A stretch of 64,000 nt of DNA, from assembly GCA_000004695.1 (NCBI GenBank), contig CM000152.2, forward strand, positions 3,936,001 to 4,000,000. Direction: 5' to 3'. Origin of the DNA: Dictyostelium discoideum (Eukaryota). Both the position numbers and the translations under genes were made by a program. Every line of letters begins with the position of its first letter. Position 1 is the first letter of the stretch. Of this stretch, positions 23,819 through 50,736 are shown in pieces. The notes beneath the pieces are model-generated. The model saw only the letters and a program-made list of their open reading frames with translations, was not told the origin of the DNA and made no database searches.

Positions 23819-24318
23819 TTATAATAATGATTCCATAGTTGTTTTAGCATTTATTTCTCTAATATGTTTAACTTGTTTAAAAACCATTATAAATAATTGA
23901 ATTACCATTGTTGAAGCTAATAGAATGTATAAAACCATAATTGGAGTGATTTTACGTTCAACTTGTTTCTCTGGATGCTTATAATATTCTTCTTTATAAA
24001 ATGGATTTTCAGAATTAAATAAAATAGGTGATGCTGAATTTGATGATGGTTGAGAACCAGTAAAAACTTGACTTGGTTGAAAACCTTGAAAATGTTGATT
24101 AGATTGAATATTACCACCTCCCATTGGTATATGGTGATGAGGTGGTATTTGCTTATGAATAACTGGACGACCACCATTTACCAAATTATGATTATGAGGA
24201 GGATGAGGAAAAGGTTGAGGAGTATTACTATTTACTTTTGGTTTATTATTAATAAATGGATTTGGATCTTTTGTAGCTGGTGATGGTATATTATTTCTTA
24301 TATTTTTATTATCATTAA

Positions 24319-24385
<67 letters not shown>

Positions 24386-24946
24386 ATTGTTTTTGTTGAT
24401 ATTATTTACATGATTTGTTTGAACATGCCCTTGGGTATTATGACCACTATGTGGAGCAGCATTTGGACTATGATAATGTGGAGCACCATTGGGACCATGG
24501 TGATGTGGAGCGCCATTTGGACCATGATGATGTGGTGCACCATTGGGACCATGGTGATGTGGTACTCTTTGTTGAGTATGATGTGGTGGGGTTTTTATTA
24601 CATTTTGGGAATTTGGGAAATGTTGTTGTTGTTGTAGTAATTGCTGTTGTGGTTGCTGTTGTTGTTGAATTTTTTGTTGCTGTTGTTGTTGTTCTAATTG
24701 CTTTTGTTGTTGTTGTAATTGTTGTTGTTGTGGTTGTTGTTGTTGTTTTATTTGTTGGTTTGGTTGGTGTTGTTGTTGGTGTTGTTGGTGTTGTTGATGG
24801 TGATGGTGGTGGTGGTGAGGCTGTGTTTGTTGTTGTTTTTGTTTTTGTTGTTGTTGTGGTATTAACTTAGATGGGGTAGTATTTTGACATATAACAATTT
24901 TTAAAATAATAAAAATAATTAAAATAATAAATAATTTATTTTTCAT
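23819..24946 (-). CDS. Q/H-rich type-I membrane protein, 375 aa (signal peptide, (PHHHGPNGA)x3 repeats, poly-N, C-terminal TM)
   Basis: Track ORF starts MKNKLFIILIIFIILKIVICQ. The body is mostly QQQ/HHH low complexity with three tandem PHHHGPNGA units and one TM helix near the C-terminus (ITPIMVLYILLASTMVIQLFIMVF). The antisense ORFs 24415..24870 are shadows. Confidence 0.6.
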
Positions 24947-39532: not shown

Positions 39533-40296
39533 CTAATTTTTATAAAATTTTATTAATTTAAGGTAAGTAAATAATTGTTTTTTTTTGGTTGTTTAATAGT
39601 TTTATAAAATTAAAAAAAAAAAAAAAAAAAATATTTACAAAATTCTAAATGTTGTTTCCTAACTAACCAACCTCTGACCCATTTTTGTATAATAATGATA
39701 CTTTTTTCTCTCTAAATATTTATTATAAAAATAAAAAAAATATCTATATTAGTTTAAATTTTTAATAAATTATAATAATGATAATAATTTCTAAAATAGT
39801 TTATATTACTTCTAATTCACCCATTTTTAAGCATTGATATATTTGTTGTTTTTTTTATTGTATAATCTAGAAAAGCTAGAATCGATCTTTTTTTTTTTTT
39901 GAGTTATTGATATTTTGAAATCACACCCAATTGAAATAAATAAATAGATTTTTTATTTTTATTTTTTTGTTTCTATTTTTCTTTTTTTTTTATTTCTTAT
40001 TGATTTTTTTTTTTTTTATTACTATTTTATTTTATTTTATTTTTTTTTTTTTTGATAATTATTTTACATATAAATGACACTAAAAATAAAAATAAAAAAT
40101 TATTATTAGTTGAATGTTTGGAATTAAAACTATTATTTATTGTATGAATTGTATTCTGTGTAATGATATTAAATAACGAAAAAAATAATAATATTATTAA
40201 TAATAATAATAATAATAAAAAATAATAATAATAATAATAATTATAACCATCGTACCACACTCACACCATTAACAGCTGTTTTATTTTATATTTTTA

Positions 40297-40327
<31 letters not shown>

Positions 40328-40582
40328 TTTATTATTTTTTTTTTTTTTTGTTGATATTATTATTTTGAGTTGATTGATATGGCTATAGGTTATTTGAGGC
40401 TATTCTATTTAAATAATTATCTTTCTATATCTCTCTCTCTATATCTTTTCTTTTCTATCTCTCACCAGTTTGAATATTATGTGACATAACCAACCCACAA
40501 TTCTACCTCTTTTTATCTTTTTCTTTTAATATTATTGTGTGGTTTTTTTTTTTTTTTAAATTTTAAAAAAAGAAGGGAAAAA

Positions 40583-40637
<55 letters not shown>

Positions 40638-40887
40638 AGTGAGTGTGAATGTGTGGTAGAAAAAAAAATATCAAAAAAGAGATATAATTGTTTTTTACCT
40701 TTTAGTTTTTTTGTTTTTTGTTTTTTTTATTTTTATTTTTATCTTTATTTTTATTTTAATTTTAATTTTAATTTTAATTTTAATTTTTATCTTTTTTTTT
40801 TTTTTATAAAATTTATTTAAGAATAATATACAAATAATTTTTCTTTGAGAAAACGATAAATGTGACTCTCGAGAATATTAGTTATCC

Positions 40888-40935
<48 letters not shown>

Positions 40936-41203
40936 TTTAAAATTAAAAAAAAGAAAAAAAAATTTTAAAATAAATAAAAAATAAAAAAAAAACTGTGATT
41001 AATTCCTTTATTTTTATTTTATTTTTTTTTGTTTAAATAAATCTGATTAAAAATTTTATTTCAAATGATTAAAAAGAATTTTTTTTATTTTTTTTATTTT
41101 TTTTTATTATAAAAAAAAGAATACTCAAAAGTTTACTATGAAAACAAAAATTAATTAATTTTTTTGTTCCTTTTAATGGGAAAAAAAAAAAGAAGGAAAT
41201 TTG

Positions 41204-41252
<49 letters not shown>

Positions 41253-41819
41253 AAAAGGTTTATCTGAAAAAATAAAAAAAAAAAAAAAATGGATAATAGA
41301 TAGAAAAAACCATCAATCATTTTTAAAAACCATTTTTTTTATTTTTTTTTTTTTTAAAATAAAATTTATTGTAAAATAACCCAAATCCATTTTTCAAGTA
41401 AAAATTTTAAAAAAAAATTTTGGAAAAAAAAAAAAAAAAAAAAAAATATCTTTTTTTTAAATTAAATTTTGAAATTTTTTATCAAAAAAAAGAAATCAAT
41501 AAACCAATCAATTATTTATTTATTTATTTATTATTTATTATTTGTATATTATTTGTATAATAAATTAACTTTTAAAAATTTATTTTTAGAAAATCGAACC
41601 AAACAAAAAAAAAAAAAAAAATAAAATAAAATAAGAAATGTCAGCAACTAAATGTGAAGAGTAAGAAATTAAAAAAAAAAAAAAATATCAAACCAAAAAA
41701 GGAAAACAAGAAAAAAATAGAAATAAAAAAAAAAAACTTTATATTTCCTTGGAAAACAAATTTTTAATTTATTAATAATTTTTTTTGAAAAAAAAAAAAA
41801 AAAAAAAAAAAAAACTTCA

Positions 41820-41876
41820 AACAAATGTACCAAAACAGTGTATCCACTTGAAGCCTTTTCAGTTTTAGGTTTGATG

Positions 41877-41907
<31 letters not shown>

Positions 41908-42912
41908 AAAAAAAAAAAAAAAATTTTCTTTTTTTTTTTCCAGATTTTCACACTTTTGGAAACTAAATTAACATTTATTTTATAATTTAATTTTTAATTA
42001 ATTAATTAATTAATCAGGTAAATCATGGCACAAAATTTGTTTTAAATGCAGTGTCGCAGAATGTAGACAAGTATTAAACTTAAAAACAGTTCAACCACAT
42101 AATCCAACTGGTAAAATCTATTGTGCAAATCATTATCCAAAAGAAAAAGCTACCTCTGTTGCCGATTCATTATCAGTTGTTAATGCAACCAATGCACCAA
42201 AAGTAGCATTAACTAATACTCAAGTTAAACCAGTTGGTAAGTTTTATTTATTATTATTATTATTATTTTTTTTTTTTTTTTCTATAATTATTAATTTTTT
42301 ATTTTTTTAAAATTTCATTTTTTAATAAATTGAATACAGATGCACCAACTCAAACTGCTGATACAATGCAATTAAATAATGCTAGAAGTGCACCAAAAGT
42401 AGCATTAACTAATAATCAAGTTAAACCAGTTGGTAAGTATTTTTTTTTTTTTTTTTTTTTAAATCAAACTCCCCTCCCCCTTGGAAAAGTTATAAATTTT
42501 TTTTTTTTTTTTTTTTTTTAACTACACAGATGCACCAATCCAAACTGCTGATACTATGGCATTAAATAATGCAAAGAATGCACCAAAAACAGGTTTGGTT
42601 AATCAACAAATTAGAGATGTTGATGCTCCATCACAAACTGCTGATACTATGGCATTGAATAATGCAAAGAATGCACCAAAAACAGGTTTGGTTAATCAAC
42701 AAATTTACAATGTTGATGCACCAACACAAGCTACCGATACTATTGCATTAAATAATGCTAAAAATGCTCCAAAGACTAATTTAGTAAATCATCAAATTTA
42801 TGATGTAGATGCACCAAGCCAAACCATAGATTTGAAATTACAAAATGCATTAAACGCACCAACCCTTCCAAAAGTTAATAATGAAATTAAAGCCATCGAA
42901 AGAAATGTTTAA
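41820..42912 (+). CDS. LASP-type LIM-domain protein with five or six 31-aa tandem repeats; exons ..41868 (5' end unresolved), 42018..42236, 42340..42432, 42530..42912
   Basis: Junction ...NKCTKTVYPLEAFSVLG|KSWHKICFKCSVAECRQVLNLKTVQPHNPTGKIYCANHYPKEK reproduces the LASP/nebulette LIM domain spacing (cf. [28 protein letters not shown]...YCNAHYPKQ). Donors GTTTGA (weak) and GTAAGT x2. Repeats DAPxQTADTMALNNAKNAPKTGLVNQQIxxV are one per 93-nt exon (exon 4) or tandem in exon 5, all phase 1. Stop at 42912. Candidate first exon ATGTCAGCAACTAAATGTGAAGA|GTAAGA (41638..41660) would supply the first Cys, but no canonical AG acceptor yields the expected C-x2-C. Confidence 0.65.
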
Positions 42913-43791
42913 AACATTTACATTTTTTTCACTTTTTATAAAATAAAATAAAATAAAATAAAATAAAATAAAATAAAATAAAATAAAATTTTATAGTTAA
43001 ATTTTTAACCTTACACTTTTTTTGGATTTTACAAATTTTTACTTTAATTGGAAAAAAGTGATTTATTTTTAAAATATTCCTAGTCAGTAAAATATTAAAT
43101 TATAAATAAATAAATAAATAAATTAAATTAAAACTTTTCCTTTTTTATTTTATTTTATTTTACTTATAATTAAAAATAATTAATATTCAATGTTTCTTAA
43201 TTAACATTAATATAGTTTTTTAAATAGTTTATACAAGGAAAATAAAAAAAAAAAATAATAATTATAATAATATTTGTTGATGATCAAATTGATTATAATT
43301 TTTAAAAATAAAAAAAAAAAAAAGATAAATATTATAATTAAAATGTTATACCCCACAATCATTTTTTTTAAAAATAATAATTAATTTAATCAAAAAATTT
43401 TTTTTTTTTTTTTTTTTTTTGTGTTTGCGAAAATATTTTTTTTTTATTTTTTTTTTTTTTTGGCAATAGGTAAATAAATTAATTTTATTAATAAATTTTT
43501 TTTAACCAATCTAATTAGACTAATAGTAAACAATCAAATTTGATTAATTTATATAGGGAAAAAAAAGAAAAAAAAAAAAAAAAAAATAAATTTTTTTGGT
43601 GTTTAAAAAAATTCTTGATGTTCACAAAAAAAAAAAAAAAATTAAAAAAATTAAAAAAAAAATAAAAAAAATAAAATTTTTAAATTAAATTTTTTTTCAA
43701 ATTTTTTTTTTTTATTTTTTTTTTTTTATTAATTTTTTAACTTCACTCACATAACTTATTTATATATATATATATAACATTTAAATATAAA

Positions 43792-45586
43792 ATGACAATT
43801 GGATTAGAACCAGCAGTTTCAAGCAAAACCAAAGATAAAATGGAGCAAGATTTATCTCCAATTGCTGATAAATCATGTAAAGAAAATAGAGAACTCGCAA
43901 AAGTAAATAATAACAATATTGATCATCATAATAATCACAATCAATTTTTCACATACTTATATGTATATTATATATTTTTATTATTATTATTATTATTATT
44001 TAGAGTGGCAAATTAATTGAAGCAATTGAAAATTTATTAATAACAGAAAAACAATGTCGTCAAGCAGAGGATTCACCATCAACATCAAAGATTGCAGCTG
44101 AAATTATTAAATTATGTTATGAAGCTGGAAGATTAGATTTAGTAAATGAGAAATTAGTATTATTATCAAAGAGAAGAGGTCAACTCAGACCAGCCATCAA
44201 AGCTATCGTTCAAGAATCAATGGTATATGTCGATCAAATTACTGATATGAAACAAAAATTAGAATTAATTGATACTCTTAGAACAATTTCAGATGGAAAA
44301 GTAATATATACATATATTTAAATTATATAATAGGAGTTTTATATATTCTAATTATTATTATTATTTTTAAATTAGATTTTTGTTGAAAATGAAAGAGCAA
44401 GATTAACAAAAACATTATCAAAAATTAAAGAGGATGAAGGTGATATTGCATCAGCAGCAAAAATTCTCCAAGATTTACAAGTTGAAACCTATGGTACAAT
44501 GGAAAAGAGAGAAAAGATTACATTCTTTATTGATCAAATGCGTATTTGTATGAATAATAAAGATTTTATTAGAGCACAATTGATAGGTAACAAAGTTAAT
44601 AGAAAAACTTTGGCTGAAGATGAGAATCAAGATCTTAAAATCGATTATTTCAAACAAATGATCCGTTACTTTTCTCATAGTGCAAATTATATTGAGATTG
44701 CACGTTGTTATCTCTCAATCTATGATACTCCTTCCGTTGAAAAAGATACACCTCAATTACTTCAAACACTTAAATACATTTGTATCTATGTAATTCTCTC
44801 TGCTTCTTCAAATGAACAATCTGATCTCTTAAATAGAGTTTATGAATTTAAACCATTAACTGATATTCAAAATTATAAGTAAGTAATAATAATAATAAAA
44901 AAAAAAAAAAAAAAAAATTATTTGTTTATTAACATTTTATTTTATTTTATTTTAAAAAAAAAAAAAAAAACAGAGATTTATTAAATCAATTTAAGACATT
45001 AGAATTAATTAGATGGAGTACATTCTTTGAACTTAATAAACCAGAATTAGATTCACAAACAGTTTTCAAAACTGAACCAAATGCATGGGAAGATTTACGT
45101 AAGAGAGTTATTGAACATGTATGTTTTTAATTTTTTTTTTTTTTTTTTTTAATTGAAAGATAAACTATTGATACTAATTTAACTTTTTTTTTTTTTTTAA
45201 AAAAATATTTAGAATATTCGTGTTATTTCAACTTATTATCAAAAGATTTCAACTGCAAGACTTGCAGAGTTATTGGATCTTTCTTTAGATGTAAGTAGTA
45301 TATTAAATATATAAATAATGATAATAAAAATAATAATAATAGATTATTAATTGTTATTTTTTTTTTTTTTTTTTAGGAATCAGAAAAATTCGTTTCAGAT
45401 TTAGTTTCAAATAAAACTATCTTTGCAAAGATTGATAGACCAGCTGGTATTGCAACATTCACCACAACCAATGATCCAAATAAAGTTTTGAATGCTTGGG
45501 CAAATAATATTACTTCATTATTAGATTTAGTTGAAAAAACAAATCATTTAGTTCAAAGAGAGTTTATGCTCCATAAAATTAATTAA
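43792..45586 (+). CDS. psmD12: 26S proteasome non-ATPase regulatory subunit 12 (Rpn5/PSMD12), 6 exons: 43792..43902, 44004..44300, 44376..44878, 44964..45108, 45213..45290, 45377..45586 (~447 aa)
   Basis: Spliced product contains ...KLVLLSKRRGQLRPAIKAIVQESMVYVDQITDMKQKLELIDTLRTISDGK|IFVENERARLTKTLSKIKEDEGDIASAAKILQDLQVETYGTMEKREKITFFIDQMRICM... and a PCI domain ...NIRVISTYYQKISTARLAELLDLSLD|ESEKFVSDLVSNKTIFAKIDRPAGIATF.... All donors are GTAAAT/GTAATA/GTAAGT/GTATGT, all acceptors are (T)nAG, and phases are consistent (0,0,2,0,0). Confidence 0.85.
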
Positions 45587-45736
45587 TTTGGTTTATTAAT
45601 CTCTTGAAAATAATAATAATAATAATAAATAATAAATAAAAAAAAAAAAAAAAAACATTTTATGTCAATAATGTAGTAATACCCCTCCCAATCCTGATCC
45701 TAATATATAAAATAATAAATAGAACAAAAACATAAA

Positions 45737-45781
<45 letters not shown>

Positions 45782-45890
45782 TCTGAAATAATTATTGGAT
45801 TTTAAATTAAGTATTTTATTTATTTTAATTTTTTTTTTTTTTTTTTTATTATTTATTTTTTTATTTTTATTTTTGTTTTTTCTGATTAAA

Positions 45891-45928
<38 letters not shown>

Positions 45929-46007
45929 CAAAACGTTATTTTTTTTTTTGTTTTTATTTTTTATTTTATATTTCACCATCCATATTAATTAAAATAAAAA
46001 AAAAAAA

Positions 46008-46871
46008 ATGATACAAACAACATTTTCATCATATTTAGCAGAATCTTGGAATAAAATTGGAGAAATTAAAATTTTAAAACCAGGTGGTATGACATTAGAT
46101 TTTTCGATTGATGCATTAAATTTAACGATTCCAAAATGTAAAATCAATGAAAATATAAAGATATTGGATGTTGGGGCTGGGTTTGGTGTTTTATCAATTT
46201 ATGCATCAACTAATTATCCAAATAGTGAAATTATTGCAACAGATATTTCAAAATGTATGATTGATTCATTAAATTATTCAATTCAAGGAAACCAAATAAA
46301 GAATGTCACTGCCAAAGTAATGGATGGCCAAAGTATGCCAGAGCTACAATCTGAATCATTCGATTACTGTTTTTCAATGTTTGGTTTGATTTATTTCCCT
46401 GATAGATTAAAAAGTCTTAAAGAGATGTACAGATTATTAAAATCAAATAATAATTCAAAAGTTTCAATTGGTAGTTGGCAATCTGATGCTTTCTTACCAA
46501 TGGTATTAGAGAAAACTTATGAAAAAGTAACAGTTGGTAGTAGTGGTGGTTTGAAATTGACATCAAAACAACCAGCTTTATCATTAGATGATAAAGTTTT
46601 ATTCAAGAGTGAATTGGAACAAGCTGGTTTTAAAAATGTTGAAATTCACAGTATTGGTCATCCATTAGAGGTAACAACTGAAAGTTTATCAAATTATCTT
46701 AGACCCGAAAACCCAGTTGTTGATGATTTCTTTAAACTTATTGGTGATGATAATATTAATAAATTTAAAGAAACTTTTATTAACCTAGTCTTAGAATTAT
46801 TTCCAAAAAATGAAAATGGTTTTCATATTGTTCCATGGAATTCTTATATTGGTATTGGTGAAAAATTATAG
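46008..46871 (+). CDS. class I SAM-dependent methyltransferase (Methyltransf_11/12-like), 287 aa, tandem paralog 1
   Basis: Motif I ILDVGAGFGVLSIY, acidic post-I residue (ATDIS), FDYCFSMFGLIYFPD (motif II/III region). Single exon. Confidence 0.8.
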   Translation: MIQTTFSSYLAESWNKIGEIKILKPGGMTLDFSIDALNLTIPKCKINENIKILDVGAGFGVLSIYASTNYPNSEIIATDISKCMIDSLNYSIQGNQIKNVTAKVMDGQSMPELQSESFDYCFSMFGLIYFPDRLKSLKEMYRLLKSNNNSKVSIGSWQSDAFLPMVLEKTYEKVTVGSSGGLKLTSKQPALSLDDKVLFKSELEQAGFKNVEIHSIGHPLEVTTESLSNYLRPENPVVDDFFKLIGDDNINKFKETFINLVLELFPKNENGFHIVPWNSYIGIGEKL

Positions 46872-46990
46872 AATTAAAAATTAAAATTAAAATAAAAAAT
46901 AAAAAATAAAAAAAAATAAAATTAATTTATCGTGGTGGGGTGTATATGTGTGTGGGTATGCGTGGTGTGAATGAACACTGTTCTAGAATT

Positions 46991-47028
<38 letters not shown>

Positions 47029-47102
47029 AGAATTTTTTTTTTTATTTTTTTATTTTTTTATTTTTTTATTTTTTTTTAATTTATAAATATAATTATATTA
47101 TT

Positions 47103-47966
47103 ATGTCAATTAATTCAACATTTTCATCATATAAATCAGAAGGTTGGGATAAATTATCAGATTCAACACTTTTAAAAATTGGTGGACCAACAGAACCATT
47201 TTCAATTGATGCACTAAATTTAACGATTCCAAAAGAGAAATTGAATGAAAAGATAAGAATATTAGATATTGCAGCAGGTGTTGGTAATTTAACAATTCCA
47301 GCAAGTAGACAATTCCCAAATTCAGAGATTGTTGCAACTGATTATTCAAAATGTATGATTGATTCATTGAATTTAATAATTGAGCAAAATAAAAATAATA
47401 TTAAAAATGTTAAAACTCTAATTGTTGATGGTCAAAATATGGTAGAGATCGAATCTGAATCATTCGATTACTGTTTTTCAATGTTTGGTTTAATTTATTT
47501 CCCTGATAGGTTATCAGGTATGAAAGAGATGTATAGAATTTTAAAATCAAATAATCAATCACGTACTTCAATTGGTAGTTGGCAATCTGATGCTTTCTTA
47601 CCCTCATTATTAGAGAAAACTTATGAACAAGTAACAAGTGGTAGTGGTGGTGGTTTGAAATTAACATCAAAACAACCAGCTTTATCATTAGATGATAAAG
47701 TTTTGTTTAAGAGTGAATTGGAACAAGCTGGTTTTAAAAATGTTGTAATTCATAGTGTTAAACATATAATTAAAATCAATGATTTAGAACCATTATTATC
47801 ACCTAAAAATCCAATTGTTGATGATTTCTTTAAATTAATAAATTATGAAAATATTGATAAATTTAAAGAAACTTTTAAATCAATTGCAAATTCATTATAT
47901 AAAAAAGATGAAAATGGTAATTATTTATCTGAATGGAATTGTTTTATTGGTATTGGCGAAAAATAA
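47103..47966 (+). CDS. class I SAM-dependent methyltransferase, 287 aa, tandem paralog 2
   Basis: About 60-65% identical to the 46008 gene over the full length (ILDIAAGVGNLTIP..., FDYCFSMFGLIYFPDRL..., SIGSWQSDAFLP...KLTSKQPALSLDDKVLFKSELEQAGFKNV). Same orientation, 230 bp apart. Confidence 0.8.
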   Translation: MSINSTFSSYKSEGWDKLSDSTLLKIGGPTEPFSIDALNLTIPKEKLNEKIRILDIAAGVGNLTIPASRQFPNSEIVATDYSKCMIDSLNLIIEQNKNNIKNVKTLIVDGQNMVEIESESFDYCFSMFGLIYFPDRLSGMKEMYRILKSNNQSRTSIGSWQSDAFLPSLLEKTYEQVTSGSGGGLKLTSKQPALSLDDKVLFKSELEQAGFKNVVIHSVKHIIKINDLEPLLSPKNPIVDDFFKLINYENIDKFKETFKSIANSLYKKDENGNYLSEWNCFIGIGEK

Positions 47967-48593
47967 AATAAAAATAAAATAAGATTAAAATTTTATTATT
48001 TATTTTTATAATTATTTGTAATTATTTGTAATTGTTTTTTTTTTTTTCTTTTAATTTTTTTTTTTACTTTTTTTAAAAGTGGTTGAAATTAACAATAATT
48101 TAACTAATTTTATTTCTAAATACATTTATTATTTTATTTTTTTCAAATCCAAATATATATTTATAAAAAATAAAATGTTTTTTTTTTTTTTAAAAAATTT
48201 ATTAGTTTGTAAAATTCCAATCATTTAAAAAGAAATTCTAATTCTTCACCCCACCTTTTGTATTTACATTTGTAAAAAAAAAAAAAAAAAAAAATATGAT
48301 GTGTGGGGGGGGTGTAATGTCTTAAAGTTTATTTAGGTATATTAATTTTAGAATAAGCAGCAGTATTATTTGACAATTTATATTAAAATATTAAAATAAT
48401 TTTTATTCTCTTTCTAATTATTTATTTAATTTTTATTATTTATATTTTATTTTTTATTTTAAAATTATTTTATTTTTTATTTCTTTCTGGAAAATAAAAA
48501 AAAATAAAAAAAAAAAATTTATTTTTAAACAAAAACACAAAAACACAAAAACAAAATAAAAACAAAACAATAAAAATTATATTTTGTAATAAA

Positions 48594-50192
48594 ATGATCA
48601 AAAAAAATAAATTACTAGTTTTAATAATTTTAAATTTTTTAATAAATTCTATTTGTAAGTAATAATAGAAAAAAAAAAAATATTAATAATAATAATTTAA
48701 TTAATTTTTTATTTTTATTTATTTTATTTAAAAAGATTCTGATAGACCATTAATCAATTATATTGAACCATTAACTAGAAATGATAATAAATTATCAGTG
48801 TTTGGTAGATTTTTTGGAGAGAAATTACAAGATGTTAAAGTTGAAATCGATGGTAAACCATATAAAATAAGTGAATGGAGTAATTCAAGTTTTGAAGTAA
48901 CTTTACAACCACCAAATCCAAAGCAATCAAAAATTAAAGTTACAACACCAATTAATTCTGTTGAGAAGGAGATTTACTTTTTAAATGAAAATTGTTTAGG
49001 AATTGATGTTTGTAATGGGCATGGAATATGCATTAAAAATAGTACAGAATGTGTATGTAATGAACCATGGTCTGGTAAAGATTGCTCCATAATCACTGGC
49101 GAATCTATGATAGAGTTAGTTGATAAACCTAAAGTTTACACATCAACAAAATTAAATATTTTTAAAATTCCTGAAATTGAAAATATTAATTTTAACACTA
49201 GTTTTGGATTAGTATTAAAAGAGTATACTAAGAATGATATAATTCTTAACACTTATTTATTAACGCCCTCTATTCAATATGGGAGTATAAAAGGACCAGA
49301 TTTACAAGTTTACAGATACAGAACCAATACATTAATATCTTCGTCAGATCATTCATTCAATTGTGACATCACTCTAACTCATTATCAATCTAATCAAACT
49401 AAAAGTTTCTATAATCAATATATTAATGAATTAAAAGATTCATTTGCATTGAGTGTAATAATTAATAATTTCATACCAATTTCACCAACTAATAAATTAA
49501 CATTATTCATTTATCCAATGATAAAATCAAAGAAATCATTTGGTGGTAAATTAAGTACAATTGTCAATGATAATAATAATAATAATAAAATTGATGAAAA
49601 TGATGATGGTCAATACATTAATGGTACAACAAGTATTAAAATGTCAATTGGTACTCAAAAATTAAGAATTAATCTTTATAATTTTGGTTTATTTTCTCAA
49701 AAATTTACAACTTTTAATACTTCAATTGTTGAAATTTTTAATAATACAAATAATATAAATAATACTAATAATAGTGATAGTAGTGATAATAGAGTTATTG
49801 ATAATGATATTTATTCTATAATTTCAATAACTTCAAATTCATCAAAATATATTTATTTTAATGCAGATTTTTATCCATATTTGGATGATTCTGAAAATGT
49901 AGATAGTTCTGATAAATTAACTTTATTTAGTGACGAAGAGAGTGGTAGTAGTGATAGTATTAGTAGTAGTAGTGGTAGTGGTAGCAGTAGCAGTAGTAGC
50001 AGTGATAATAATACAAGGAATATTATTGATGATAGTAAACATAATTTAACACCAACTCAAAATATTACTACCGAAGTTAATCATGAAAATCATCAAAATG
50101 AAAGTAATAGTAGTAGTAGTATTGGAAATAAATTACCAATTTCGATAATAACTTATTTTGGCCCTGTTTTTATTTTTTGGAAGTTAATTTGA
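48594..50192 (+). CDS. secreted or GPI-anchored cell-surface glycoprotein with IPT/TIG-like segment and EGF-like module (~505 aa; exons 48594..48654, 48736..50192)
   Basis: Exon 1 MIKKNKLLVLIILNFLINSI (signal peptide) ends at GTAAGT. Acceptor AAAAG|AT is in frame with the track ORF (its M is a GTG). EGF-like CLGIDVCNGHGICIKNSTECVCNEPWSGKDCS. Many NxS/T sites, Ser-rich stretch, hydrophobic C-terminus ISIITYFGPVFIFWKLI*. Confidence 0.65.
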
Positions 50193-50736
50193 AACCTTTC
50201 CAAAAATAAAAATAAAAATATAAATAAAAATTTCATTACCGAATTAAAAACCTATTCCAGTATTTCATTTGTTTTCAGATATGAAAGAAACAATCGGTGA
50301 TGTCGAACTATATTTATAAATTTATTAATAAAAATAAAAAAAGGGAGTATTTTTTTTTTTTTTTTTTTTGTAACCCATTTTTTTTGTAACCCATTTTTGG
50401 AAAATTTAATAAAGATTTATTACTTTTAAAATATGTTTTGTTTTTTTTTTTTTTTTTTAATTTATTTCATTTTTTAAATTCCCAAAAAAGAGAACAGTGT
50501 TAAAACAAATGTTTTTTTTATTTTTAATTTTTTATTTTTAATTTTTAATTTTTTATTTTTATTTTTTATTTTTAATTTTTTTTTTTTGAACAAAAATTTT
50601 TGAAAAATTAATTTTTTATTTTTTTGAAACAAAATTTTAAAACAAAGCAAGTTTGTATTTGTGTATATATATGATTATATAAATATCAATTTTTTGGTTT
50701 TCTATTTTTTATATATATATATTTTTTTATTTATTT

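What the first reader, a model, noticed from the sequence alone, without database searches (positions are those of the whole stretch)
41638..42912. LASP-type LIM protein whose 31-aa repeats map one-per-exon; 5' end needs a non-canonical or unseen splice
The second half of a LASP/nebulette-type LIM domain (WHKICFKC...YCANHYPKEK) is unambiguous and is followed by five or six DAPxQTADTMALNNAKNAPK... repeats instead of nebulin SDxxYK repeats or an SH3. Exon 4 is exactly one repeat (93 nt, phase 1-1) and exon 5 holds tandem copies. This is consistent with repeat growth by exon duplication. The sequence ...KCTKTVYPLEAFSVLG supplies the second Cys of the first zinc finger at LASP-like spacing. The ATG exon (41638..41660, MSATKCE-) would supply the first Cys, but only if spliced to position 41825, where the intron would end in AA rather than AG. 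The donor of the next intron is a weak GTTTGA.
Basis: partly seen in the sequence, partly recalled or inferred. Interest (0 to 1): 0.5.

Follow-up and report, generated by a model that had tools for sequence, protein, structure and literature searches.

The report
LimE-like LIM gene with reference base errors
This is a real five-exon Dictyostelium discoideum gene for a relative of the actin-filament marker protein LimE, and its two odd splice signals are single-base discrepancies in this reference sequence, because a second assembly of the same species has normal signals at both positions.

Summary
The window is D. discoideum AX4 reference chromosome 3. Exons 41638-41660, 41825-41868, 42018-42236, 42340-42432 and 42530-42912 join into a 253-aa protein: one N-terminal LIM domain followed by six 31-aa repeats. 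Intron 1 ends in AA and intron 2 starts GTTTGA, as reported. The exon 1/2 junction is right: it gives MSATKCEECTKTVYPLEA, identical to the Polysphondylium violaceum orthologue, where it lies in one exon.

The non-canonical splice is not supported. A second D. discoideum assembly (GCA_054883475.1) has identical exons. It has G instead of A at 41824, which gives a normal AG acceptor, and A instead of T at 41871, which gives GTATGA. All four introns are GT-AG there, and a 253-residue gene is called on exactly this span. These two sites sit in a cluster of 10 substitutions in 1.24 kb. The pattern looks like base-call error beside homopolymers. A real AX4 splice-defective allele is not excluded.

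The protein is not a LASP: it has no nebulin repeats and no SH3. It is a paralogue of LimE (45% identity over the LIM domain plus two repeats), with six repeats and no coiled-coil tail. It probably binds F-actin. This is a new member of a known kind, of modest interest.

The parts
41638..41660 (+). Exon 1: ATG plus codons for MSATKCE and 2 nt of codon 8. It supplies Cys6, the first zinc ligand of the LIM domain.
   Evidence: The N-terminus is identical to P. violaceum CYY_010453. C6 is invariant in the family alignment.
41661..41824 (+). Intron 1, 164 nt, phase 2. In this window it reads GTAAGA...AACAA. The last base, 41824, is A here and G in assembly GCA_054883475.1, where the intron ends in a canonical AG.
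   Evidence: Position 41824 lies 10 nt after a 27-A run.
41825..41868 (+). Exon 2, 44 nt: (E)CTKTVYPLEAFSVL(G). It supplies Cys9.
41869..42017 (+). Intron 2, 149 nt, phase 1. The donor is GTTTGA in the window. Position 41871 is T here and A in the other assembly, giving GTATGA. The acceptor is CAG.
   Evidence: Position 41871 lies 6 nt before a 47-nt A-rich run.
42018..42236 (+). Exon 3, 219 nt: the rest of the LIM domain (KSWHKICFKC...YCANHYPK), then repeat unit 0 at 42144-42236 (EKATSVADSLSVVNATNAPKVALTNTQVKPV).
41653..42142 (+). Span that encodes the LIM domain (residues 6-64), interrupted by introns 1 and 2.
   Evidence: Pfam PF00412, E 1.1e-9, 38.8 bits against a cut-off of 22.9. Best PDB match is CRP1, 3e-12. 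51% identity to the Ascaris LASP LIM domain. 45% identity to LimE.
42237..42339 (+). Intron 3, 103 nt, GTAAGT...ACAG, phase 1.
42340..42432 (+). Exon 4, 93 nt, phase 1-1: exactly one repeat (DAPTQTADTMQLNNARSAPKVALTNNQVKPV). It is a mosaic. The first 48 nt resemble exon 5 unit 2 (40/48). The last 45 nt resemble the exon 3 unit (43/45).
42433..42529 (+). Intron 4, 97 nt, GTAAGT...ACAG, phase 1.
42530..42912 (+). Exon 5: repeat units 2-5 (42530-42622, 42623-42715, 42716-42808, 42809-42901), the conserved C-terminus ...VNNEIKAIERNV, and the stop codon.
   Evidence: The C-terminal motif is shared with the P. violaceum and T. lacteum orthologues.

Best explanation
The locus is an intact, conserved, five-exon D. 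discoideum gene for a 253-aa cytoskeletal adaptor. The protein has one N-terminal LIM zinc-finger domain followed by six copies of a 31-aa motif, D-A-P-x-Q-T-A-D-T-M-A-L-N-N-A-K-N-A-P-K-x-x-L-V-N-Q-Q-I-x-x-V. It is a paralogue of LimE. LimE's LIM domain plus two copies of the same motif, with the coiled coil deleted, is the standard F-actin reporter in Dictyostelium.

Inferred mechanism: the LIM domain and the short helical D[ST]xxxxNAxNAPK motifs, spaced along a mostly disordered chain, bind the side of actin filaments. Six motifs would give multivalent binding, and there is no LimE-type coiled coil for oligomerisation.

The two aberrant splice signals in this window (AA acceptor at 41823-41824, GTTTGA donor at 41869-41874) are not biology of the gene. 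Each is a single-base discrepancy of the AX4 reference sequence. They are most likely base-call errors next to long homopolymers. The gene is spliced at ordinary GT-AG introns.

Shown: the gene model, its conservation, canonical sites in a second assembly, and homology to LimE. Inferred: that the reference bases are errors rather than real AX4 variants, and that the protein binds actin.
For: 1. Source of the window. It is the AX4 reference: its version of DDB_G0281057 (P497) equals EAL66825.1 on a 6,357,299-bp contig. The other assembly's version (T497) equals KAM9949998.1, locus tag ACTFIT_011226.

2. Second assembly. GCA_054883475.1 (held as L002/L003) is 99.6% identical over 20.9 kb. All five exons are identical. 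It has G at window 41824 and A at window 41871. With those bases, a search that allows only GT..AG introns recovers the full 253-aa protein at L002 4570-5836. The same search fails on the window. A 253-residue gene is called on exactly that span of that assembly.

3. The junction. MSATKCEECTKTVYPLEA is identical in P. violaceum, where it lies in one exon. C6 and C9 are invariant in 24 homologues.

4. Error signature.
- 10 of the 13 substitutions in 20.9 kb fall in 41257-42494, and none is in an exon.
- 7 of those 10 lie within 12 nt of a homopolymer of at least 10 nt. Such positions make up 12% of the region.
- In 17 of 18 substitutions, the window base copies a neighbouring base of the other assembly. 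The null expectation is 0.35-0.45. The reverse holds in only 12 of 18.
- At 50163 the reference allele is unique against four other D. discoideum sequences.
- Published work reports errors in AX4 reference genes (PMC5282741). It also reports 1,916 differences from the reference that were shared between AX4-derived lines (PMC3466296).

5. Family.
- 45% identity to a LimE strain variant over residues 1-115, covering the LIM domain and both LimE repeats, E 1e-24. LimE itself is O60952.
- LimE consists of a LIM domain, a glycine-rich segment with two repeats and a coiled coil. LimE without the coil marks F-actin (PMC13064307, PMC8523838).
- An AlphaFold2 model of the orthologue gives LIM pLDDT 87-96. 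The repeats score about 50, with a 7-residue helix on each motif.
Against: - The strain behind GCA_054883475.1 is not known to me. If it is a distinct isolate, the differences could be real polymorphisms, and AX4 could truly carry AA and GTTTGA.
- Two of the four intronic substitutions hit splice-signal positions. By my rough estimate that is mildly improbable (about 0.03) under random error, although this locus was selected because it looked odd.
- All 11 indels are homopolymers that are longer in the window. So the other assembly has technical biases of its own.
- I had no reads, ESTs or RNA-seq for AX4.
- Actin binding is inferred from LimE only.
- No AX4 protein for this gene appeared in the protein database. 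That fits a broken model in the reference. The database is demonstrably incomplete, however.
Confidence: 0.72

Rival explanations
1. The AX4 lineage really carries both base changes. The gene would then be a recent splice-defective null allele in AX4, while other D. discoideum strains keep a working copy.
For: - The window is the AX4 reference and shows both changes.
- Using the next AG downstream gives MSATKCEDVST*, a truncated product.
- No AX4 protein for the locus was found.
- Two hits on splice signals of one gene would be expected if the gene were already dead or under selection for loss.
Against: - The 762-nt ORF is intact and identical to the other assembly across all five exons.
- Ten clustered differences in 1.24 kb, mostly at homopolymer edges and of the neighbour-copy type, look technical.
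- The measured mutation rate is 2.9e-11 per site per generation (PMC3466296). That makes two independent hits 47 bp apart in a laboratory lineage very unlikely.
- At 50163 the reference is the odd one out, inside a similar cluster.
Confidence: 0.2
2. The intron is truly removed at a non-canonical GT-AA 3' splice site, and at a weak GTTTGA donor, in AX4.
For: The junction needed for the conserved protein coincides exactly with the AA.
Against: - A nearly identical assembly has AG at that base, so the conserved state is canonical.
- All other introns of this gene and of its orthologues that I modelled are GT-AG.
- There is no AT-AC or U12-like signature.
Confidence: 0.03
3. A different, unseen first exon elsewhere supplies the C-x2-C canonically, and 41638-41660 is not part of the gene.
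For: None beyond the missing AG in this window.
Against: - Exon 1 plus exon 2 reproduce the first 18 residues of the P. violaceum orthologue exactly.
- The frame upstream of 41825 has a stop at 41724 and no ATG (read).
- The second assembly splices exon 1 to exon 2 canonically, and its called gene starts at this ATG.
Confidence: 0.02
4. The protein is a divergent LASP/nebulette-family member whose repeats are degenerate nebulin repeats.
For: - The LIM domain is 51% identical to Ascaris LASP.
- A profile-profile alignment with LASPs (probability 99.5%) runs 19 residues past the LIM domain, into the first half of repeat 1, which aligns on the first half of nebulin repeat 1.
- The architecture is similar: a LIM domain followed by repeats of about 31-35 aa that bind actin in LASP.
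Against: - A repeat-only profile built from 142 units shows no similarity to nematode LASP nebulin repeats (hhalign probability 0.1).
- No Pfam Nebulin hit at E up to 10 in the query or in any of 32 family members.
- There is no SH3 domain.
- LASP is reported as a holozoan class (PMC3305314).
Confidence: 0.1

Closest known systems
Dictyostelium discoideum LimE (DdLimE, UniProt O60952, 199 aa)
   Same: - A single N-terminal LIM domain, followed directly by copies of the same D[ST]xAxxNAxNAPK motif.
- 45% identity over residues 1-115, E 1e-24, and the later repeats also align to LimE's two repeats.
- Same genome and same chromosome.
- LimE's LIM-plus-repeat part is an F-actin marker (PMC13064307, PMC8523838).
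   Different: - Six repeats of a strict 31-aa period instead of two in a glycine-rich segment.
- No Q/E-rich coiled-coil tail. Instead there is a short conserved C-terminus, VNNEIKAIERNV.
- Five exons.
- The orthologue set is distinct from the LimE orthologues in P. violaceum, A. subglobosum and T. lacteum.
Uncharacterised dictyostelid orthologues: P. violaceum CYY_010453, A. subglobosum SAMD00019534_122550, T. lacteum DLAC_04516
   Same: 50-59% identity over the full length, identical N-terminus, same LIM-plus-repeats architecture and same C-terminal motif.
   Different: - Repeat number and sequence differ.
- Intron positions differ, and none has D. discoideum intron 1.
- All are annotated only as hypothetical or LIM zinc-binding domain proteins.
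LASP-1 / LASP-2 (LIM and SH3 protein; nebulin family)
   Same: - The most similar animal LIM domain found (51% identity; hhalign 99.5%).
- A LIM domain followed by short repeats that bind F-actin in LASP.
   Different: No nebulin repeats are detectable, there is no SH3, and the repeats have a different consensus.
CRP/CSRP class (cysteine- and glycine-rich proteins)
   Same: - The best solved-structure matches are CRP1, CRP2 and MLP.
- The literature places the Dictyostelium LIM proteins in this class (PMC3305314).
   Different: CRPs have LIM domains each followed by a glycine-rich stretch. They lack a six-copy NAxNAPK repeat array.

Membership tests
LIM domain proteins (Pfam PF00412) | Double zinc finger C-x2-C-x16-23-H-x2-C-x2-C-x2-C-x16-21-C-x2-(C/H/D), scoring above the Pfam gathering threshold | tested here: met
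   38.8 bits against a cut-off of 22.9, E 1.1e-9, residues 6-64. Ligands C6, C9, H27, C30, C33, C38 and C58 are invariant in the family, and H61 is in at least 90% of members. The model of the orthologue has pLDDT 87-96 over the domain.
LimE-like proteins (LIM + NAxNAPK repeats) | N-terminal LIM domain homologous to that of LimE | tested here: met
   45% identity over residues 1-115, E 1e-24, against a LimE strain variant from the same 90% cluster as O60952.
LimE-like proteins (LIM + NAxNAPK repeats) | Repeat motif D[ST]xAxxNAxNAPK directly after the LIM domain (the 'two repeat sequences' of LimE) | tested here: met
   Six copies are present. Units 0-1, 2-3 and 4-5 each align to LimE residues 56-135.
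LimE-like proteins (LIM + NAxNAPK repeats) | C-terminal coiled-coil tail | tested here: not met
   The protein ends 12 residues after the last repeat (...VNNEIKAIERNV). It has no Q/E-rich tail like that of the A. subglobosum LimE orthologue P0059.
LimE-like proteins (LIM + NAxNAPK repeats) | Binding to or co-localisation with F-actin | not testable with these tools
   Known for LimE only (PMC13064307, PMC8523838).
LASP / nebulin family | LASP-type LIM domain | tested here: met
   51% identity to Ascaris LASP, E 2e-17. hhalign probability 99.5%.
LASP / nebulin family | Nebulin repeats (Pfam PF00880, SDxxYK) | tested here: not met
   No hit at E up to 10 in the query or in 32 homologues. The repeat profile against LASP nebulin repeats gives hhalign probability 0.1. 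The only link is a flank extension of the LIM alignment into half of repeat 1.
LASP / nebulin family | C-terminal SH3 domain | tested here: not met
   No SH3 hit, and the C-terminus is 12 residues long after the last repeat.
Non-canonical (GT-AA) spliceosomal intron | The non-AG 3' terminus is a real feature of the genome rather than of one sequence record | tested here: not met
   A second D. discoideum assembly has AG at this base.
Non-canonical (GT-AA) spliceosomal intron | Spliced transcripts across the junction from a genome that carries AA | not testable with these tools
   No read or transcript data for AX4 were available.

The most novel reading that the evidence does not exclude
Two readings remain open.

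(a) The common laboratory strain AX4 really carries the two splice-site changes. It would then be a natural null for a six-repeat LimE paralogue that other D. discoideum strains express. That would be a hidden cytoskeletal difference between laboratory strains.

(b) The NAxNAPK repeat, which has no Pfam family and occurs in Amoebozoa, chytrid fungi and other protists after a LASP-like LIM domain, is an ancient F-actin-binding module that shares ancestry with the LIM-plus-nebulin-repeat architecture of LASP. That would move the origin of this architecture to before the split of Amoebozoa and Opisthokonta.
Probability: 0.2. Interest if true: 0.55.

Novelty: new member of a known kind. Interest (0 to 1): 0.3.

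Why it matters
- **Unannotated gene:** D. discoideum AX4 is the reference genome for a major model of cell motility, and LimE is its standard F-actin reporter. A conserved LimE paralogue with three times as many actin-marker repeats seems to have no protein entry for AX4 in the databases searched. The likely reason is that two single-base discrepancies in the reference break its splice sites. Correcting 41824 (A to G) and 41871 (T to A) restores an ordinary gene model.
- **Wider problem:** the case illustrates a known issue, base errors beside homopolymers in the Sanger reference (PMC5282741). It also shows that non-canonical splice sites in this genome should be checked against newer assemblies before they are read as biology.
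- **Candidate module:** the repeat itself is uncharacterised and fairly widespread. It is a reasonable candidate for an actin-binding module and could be tested.

Tried and rejected
- **Locus look-up by protein:** exact look-up of several window ORFs failed because the genes have introns. I therefore could not fetch the locus from other strains or from read-derived contigs.
- **AX4 annotation:** I could not see it directly. No AX4 protein for this locus turned up. This is weak evidence, because a neighbouring 375-aa protein is also missing from that collection. Text searches for DDB_G0281043 to DDB_G0281049 found nothing. The locus is not among the PASA 'novel genes' of PMC5282741.
- **Nebulin homology:** hhalign of the repeat profile against LASP nebulin repeats was negative, and Pfam scans were negative. 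Only nematode LASP repeats were available as the nebulin side, so the test has limited power.
- **Alternative acceptors:** every other AG in or near intron 1 gives an early stop or a poly-lysine read-through.
- **Exon duplication:** introns 3 and 4 share only their ends and T-richness, so I cannot claim a recent duplication of exon plus intron.
- **Structure prediction:** I modelled the P. violaceum orthologue instead. I ran no fold search, because only the LIM domain was confident.
- **New assemblies:** literature searches for a paper describing them, and for a list of Dictyostelium LIM genes, gave nothing usable.
Full report
**What is in the sequence**

The window has about 20% G+C and long homopolymers. 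The region 41600-42950 reads as the first-stage reader described. I joined 41638-41660, 41825-41868, 42018-42236, 42340-42432 and 42530-42912. This gives a 762-nt ORF of 253 aa with 33% G+C. The four introns are 164, 149, 103 and 97 nt long and have 7-21% G+C. Those sizes are typical for D. discoideum, where the median intron is 103 nt and introns average 89% A+T (PMC2483917). Introns 3 and 4 are GTAAGT...CAG. Intron 1 is GTAAGA...AACAA, so it ends in AA. Intron 2 begins GTTTGA. The spliced product matches Pfam LIM over residues 6-64 at E 1.1e-9 and matches nothing else.

**Is the exon 1/2 junction right?**

A protein search found orthologues in Polysphondylium violaceum (59% identity), Acytostelium subglobosum (54%) and Tieghemostelium lacteum (50%). 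It also found many 1-kb transcript-like contigs from other protists. The P. violaceum protein starts MSATKCEECTKTVYPLEA, identical to my exon 1 plus exon 2 product. There the whole stretch lies in a single exon. In an alignment of 24 homologues, both cysteines of the first zinc knuckle (C6 from exon 1 and C9 from exon 2) are invariant. The frame upstream of 41825 has a stop at 41724 and no ATG (read). Every alternative AG acceptor gives an early stop or a poly-lysine read-through.

**Where the window comes from, and the decisive comparison**

Exact look-ups of neighbouring ORFs identify D. discoideum genes DDB_G0281035 to DDB_G0281057 on chromosome 3. They also brought in a second D. discoideum assembly, GCA_054883475.1 (CM142509.1, locus tags ACTFIT_), held as L001-L003. 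One residue of DDB_G0281057 differs between the two assemblies. The window's version (P497) is EAL66825.1 of AX4, on a 6,357,299-bp contig. The other version (T497) is KAM9949998.1. So the window is the AX4 reference.

Over 20.9 kb the two assemblies are 99.6% identical, with 13 substitutions and 11 homopolymer-length indels. All five exons of the LIM gene are identical. At window 41824 the other assembly has G, so intron 1 ends ...AACAG. At window 41871 it has A, so intron 2 begins GTATGA. On that sequence, a search restricted to GT..AG introns recovers the complete 253-aa protein at L002 4570-5836. The same search finds nothing on the window. A gene with a 253-residue product is called on exactly that span in that assembly. 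Both anomalies that made this finding interesting are single-base differences, and a near-identical genome has the ordinary signal at each.

**Error or real allele?**

Ten of the 13 substitutions lie within 41257-42494. None is in an exon. Seven of the ten are within 12 nt of a homopolymer of at least 10 nt, and only 12% of the region lies that close to one. Position 41824 lies 10 nt after a 27-A run. Position 41871 lies 6 nt before a 47-nt A-rich run.

I pooled these 13 substitutions with the 5 found in L001. In 17 of the 18, the window's base equals a base that flanks the site in the other assembly. Random substitution in this sequence would give 35-45%. The reverse relation holds in only 12 of 18. 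At 41824 the G is flanked by A on both sides. At 41871 the A is flanked by T on both sides. This is what phase slippage after a homopolymer would produce in a sequencing trace.

A second small cluster has three C-for-A differences in 39 bp at 50163-50201. It includes the P497 codon. There the AX4 reference is alone against ACTFIT, two other D. discoideum strains and a read-derived contig, all of which have T.

Published work supports this reading. Singh et al. found errors in the reference sequence of clcD and DDB_G0279477 and suspected errors in about a hundred more genes (PMC5282741). Saxer et al. found 1,916 differences from the reference that were shared between AX4-derived lines. They attributed these to reference errors or to differences between their ancestral clone and the reference. 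They measured a mutation rate of 2.9e-11 per site per generation (PMC3466296).

Two caveats apply. I do not know the strain or the sequencing technology of the second assembly. All 11 indels make the window's homopolymers longer, so the second assembly has biases of its own. I put about 0.7-0.75 on reference error, about 0.2 on a real splice-defective AX4 allele, and a few per cent on true GT-AA splicing.

**What the protein is**

- **Solved structures.** The best matches are the LIM domains of CRP1, CRP2 and MLP. LASP-1 is represented only by a 31-residue fragment.
- **LASP.** A profile search brought in nematode LASP proteins. Pairwise identity to the Ascaris LASP LIM domain is 51%. A profile-profile alignment (probability 99.5%) runs 19 residues past the LIM domain, into the first half of repeat 1.
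- **Not nebulin repeats by any test I could run.** There is no Pfam Nebulin hit at E up to 10 in the query or in 32 homologues. A profile of 142 repeat units shows no similarity to LASP nebulin repeats. There is no SH3 domain.
- **LimE.** The profile search also hit a 200-aa A. subglobosum protein with two NAxNAPK motifs and a Q/E-rich tail. A search with that protein led to the cluster that contains D. discoideum LimE, O60952. My protein is 45% identical to a LimE strain variant over residues 1-115 (E 1e-24). That stretch covers the LIM domain and both LimE repeats. The later repeat pairs align to the same LimE segment.
[quoted passage not shown] Without the coil it is the standard F-actin marker (PMC13064307; PMC8523838).

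The gene is therefore a LimE paralogue with six repeats and no coiled coil. Its orthologues in other dictyostelids are distinct from the LimE orthologues in those species.

An AlphaFold2 model of the P. violaceum orthologue shows a confident LIM domain (pLDDT 87-96). The repeat region has low confidence, with a 7-residue helix on each D[ST]xxxxNA motif. I infer multivalent side-binding to F-actin. This inference is not tested.

**Repeats and exons**

There are six 93-nt units: the end of exon 3, all of exon 4, and four in exon 5 (TRF period 93). Units 2 and 3 are 84/93 identical. Exon 4 is a mosaic. Its first 48 nt resemble unit 2 (40/48). Its last 45 nt resemble the exon 3 unit (43/45), and it has the same donor. 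That pattern fits unequal exchange between repeats on either side of an intron. However, introns 3 and 4 share only their ends and T-richness. Exon duplication is therefore possible but not shown, and most repeat growth happened within one exon.

P. violaceum and A. subglobosum also have a one-repeat exon, of 99 nt, flanked by phase-1 introns. Their introns sit inside NAx|NAPK, 15 codons upstream of the D. discoideum positions. T. lacteum has a single intron after K24. None of the three has D. discoideum intron 1.

**Annotation status**

No AX4 protein from this locus was returned by two sensitive searches or by an exact look-up. The AX4 neighbours and LimE are present in that collection. This suggests the reference protein set lacks the gene, which would be expected if the acceptor is broken. 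The evidence is weak, because the collection also lacks a neighbouring 375-aa protein that is recorded on two contigs. The locus is not in the list of novel PASA genes of PMC5282741.

**Verdict**

The finding is a real, conserved, probably actin-binding LIM-repeat gene. It is a new member of the LimE-like kind. Its apparent non-canonical splicing is best explained by two base discrepancies in the AX4 reference. Interest is modest (0.3). The value lies in a corrected gene model and in an uncharacterised paralogue of a much-used actin probe. The open questions are whether AX4 truly carries the defects and whether the repeat is related to nebulin repeats. Both can be tested with public reads and simple experiments.

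Noticed in passing
window 50163, 50196, 50201: There are three C (window) versus A (other assembly) differences within 39 bp. The one at 50163 makes residue 497 of DDB_G0281057 a proline in the AX4 reference. Three other D. discoideum assemblies and a read-derived contig all have threonine. This is probably another small patch of reference base errors, here affecting an annotated protein.
   Followed up: partly
window 40004-50441 (11 sites, e.g. 40588, 41207, 45739): Every indel between the AX4 reference and GCA_054883475.1 is a homopolymer-length difference. The window's run is always the longer one, by 1-15 nt. A one-sided bias like this points to a technical cause in one of the two assemblies.
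   Followed up: no
window 46008-46871 and 47103-47966: These are two tandem 287-aa methyltransferase genes (DDB_G0281053 and DDB_G0281055), about 78% identical at the DNA level. Other D. discoideum strains have 289- and 290-aa versions of the first one.
   Followed up: no
L004 1821-2866, L005 2001-2743, L006 2001-3110: Intron positions in this gene are not conserved among dictyostelids. P. violaceum and A. subglobosum have phase-1 introns inside NAx|NAPK that flank a 99-nt exon encoding one repeat. In D. discoideum the introns lie 15 codons further 3' and flank a 93-nt exon. T. lacteum has only one intron, after K24, which is 5 nt from D. discoideum intron 2.
   Followed up: partly
window 42340-42432: Exon 4 is a mosaic. 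Its 5' half matches the first exon 5 repeat (40/48 nt). Its 3' half and donor match the exon 3 repeat (43/45 nt). This suggests unequal exchange or gene conversion between repeats across an intron.
   Followed up: partly
proteins P0058, P0067, P0070, P0071 (chytrid fungi); P0013, P0042 (MMETSP protists): The LIM-plus-NAxNAPK-repeat architecture is not confined to Amoebozoa. LimE-like proteins with two repeats occur in several chytrid fungi, and multi-repeat forms occur in marine protist transcriptomes. In this copy of Pfam the repeats matched no family consistently (query and 32 homologues scanned).
   Followed up: partly
window 42938-42989: There is a perfect (ATAAA)x10 microsatellite 26 nt after the stop codon, in the likely 3' UTR or polyadenylation region.
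   Followed up: no
window 23819-24946 (-): This 375-aa ORF is recorded as a called gene on two contigs of more than 1 Mb, yet its exact sequence is reported as absent from the protein cluster collection. The two resources therefore do not cover the same proteins, which limits conclusions drawn from a protein not being found.
   Followed up: no
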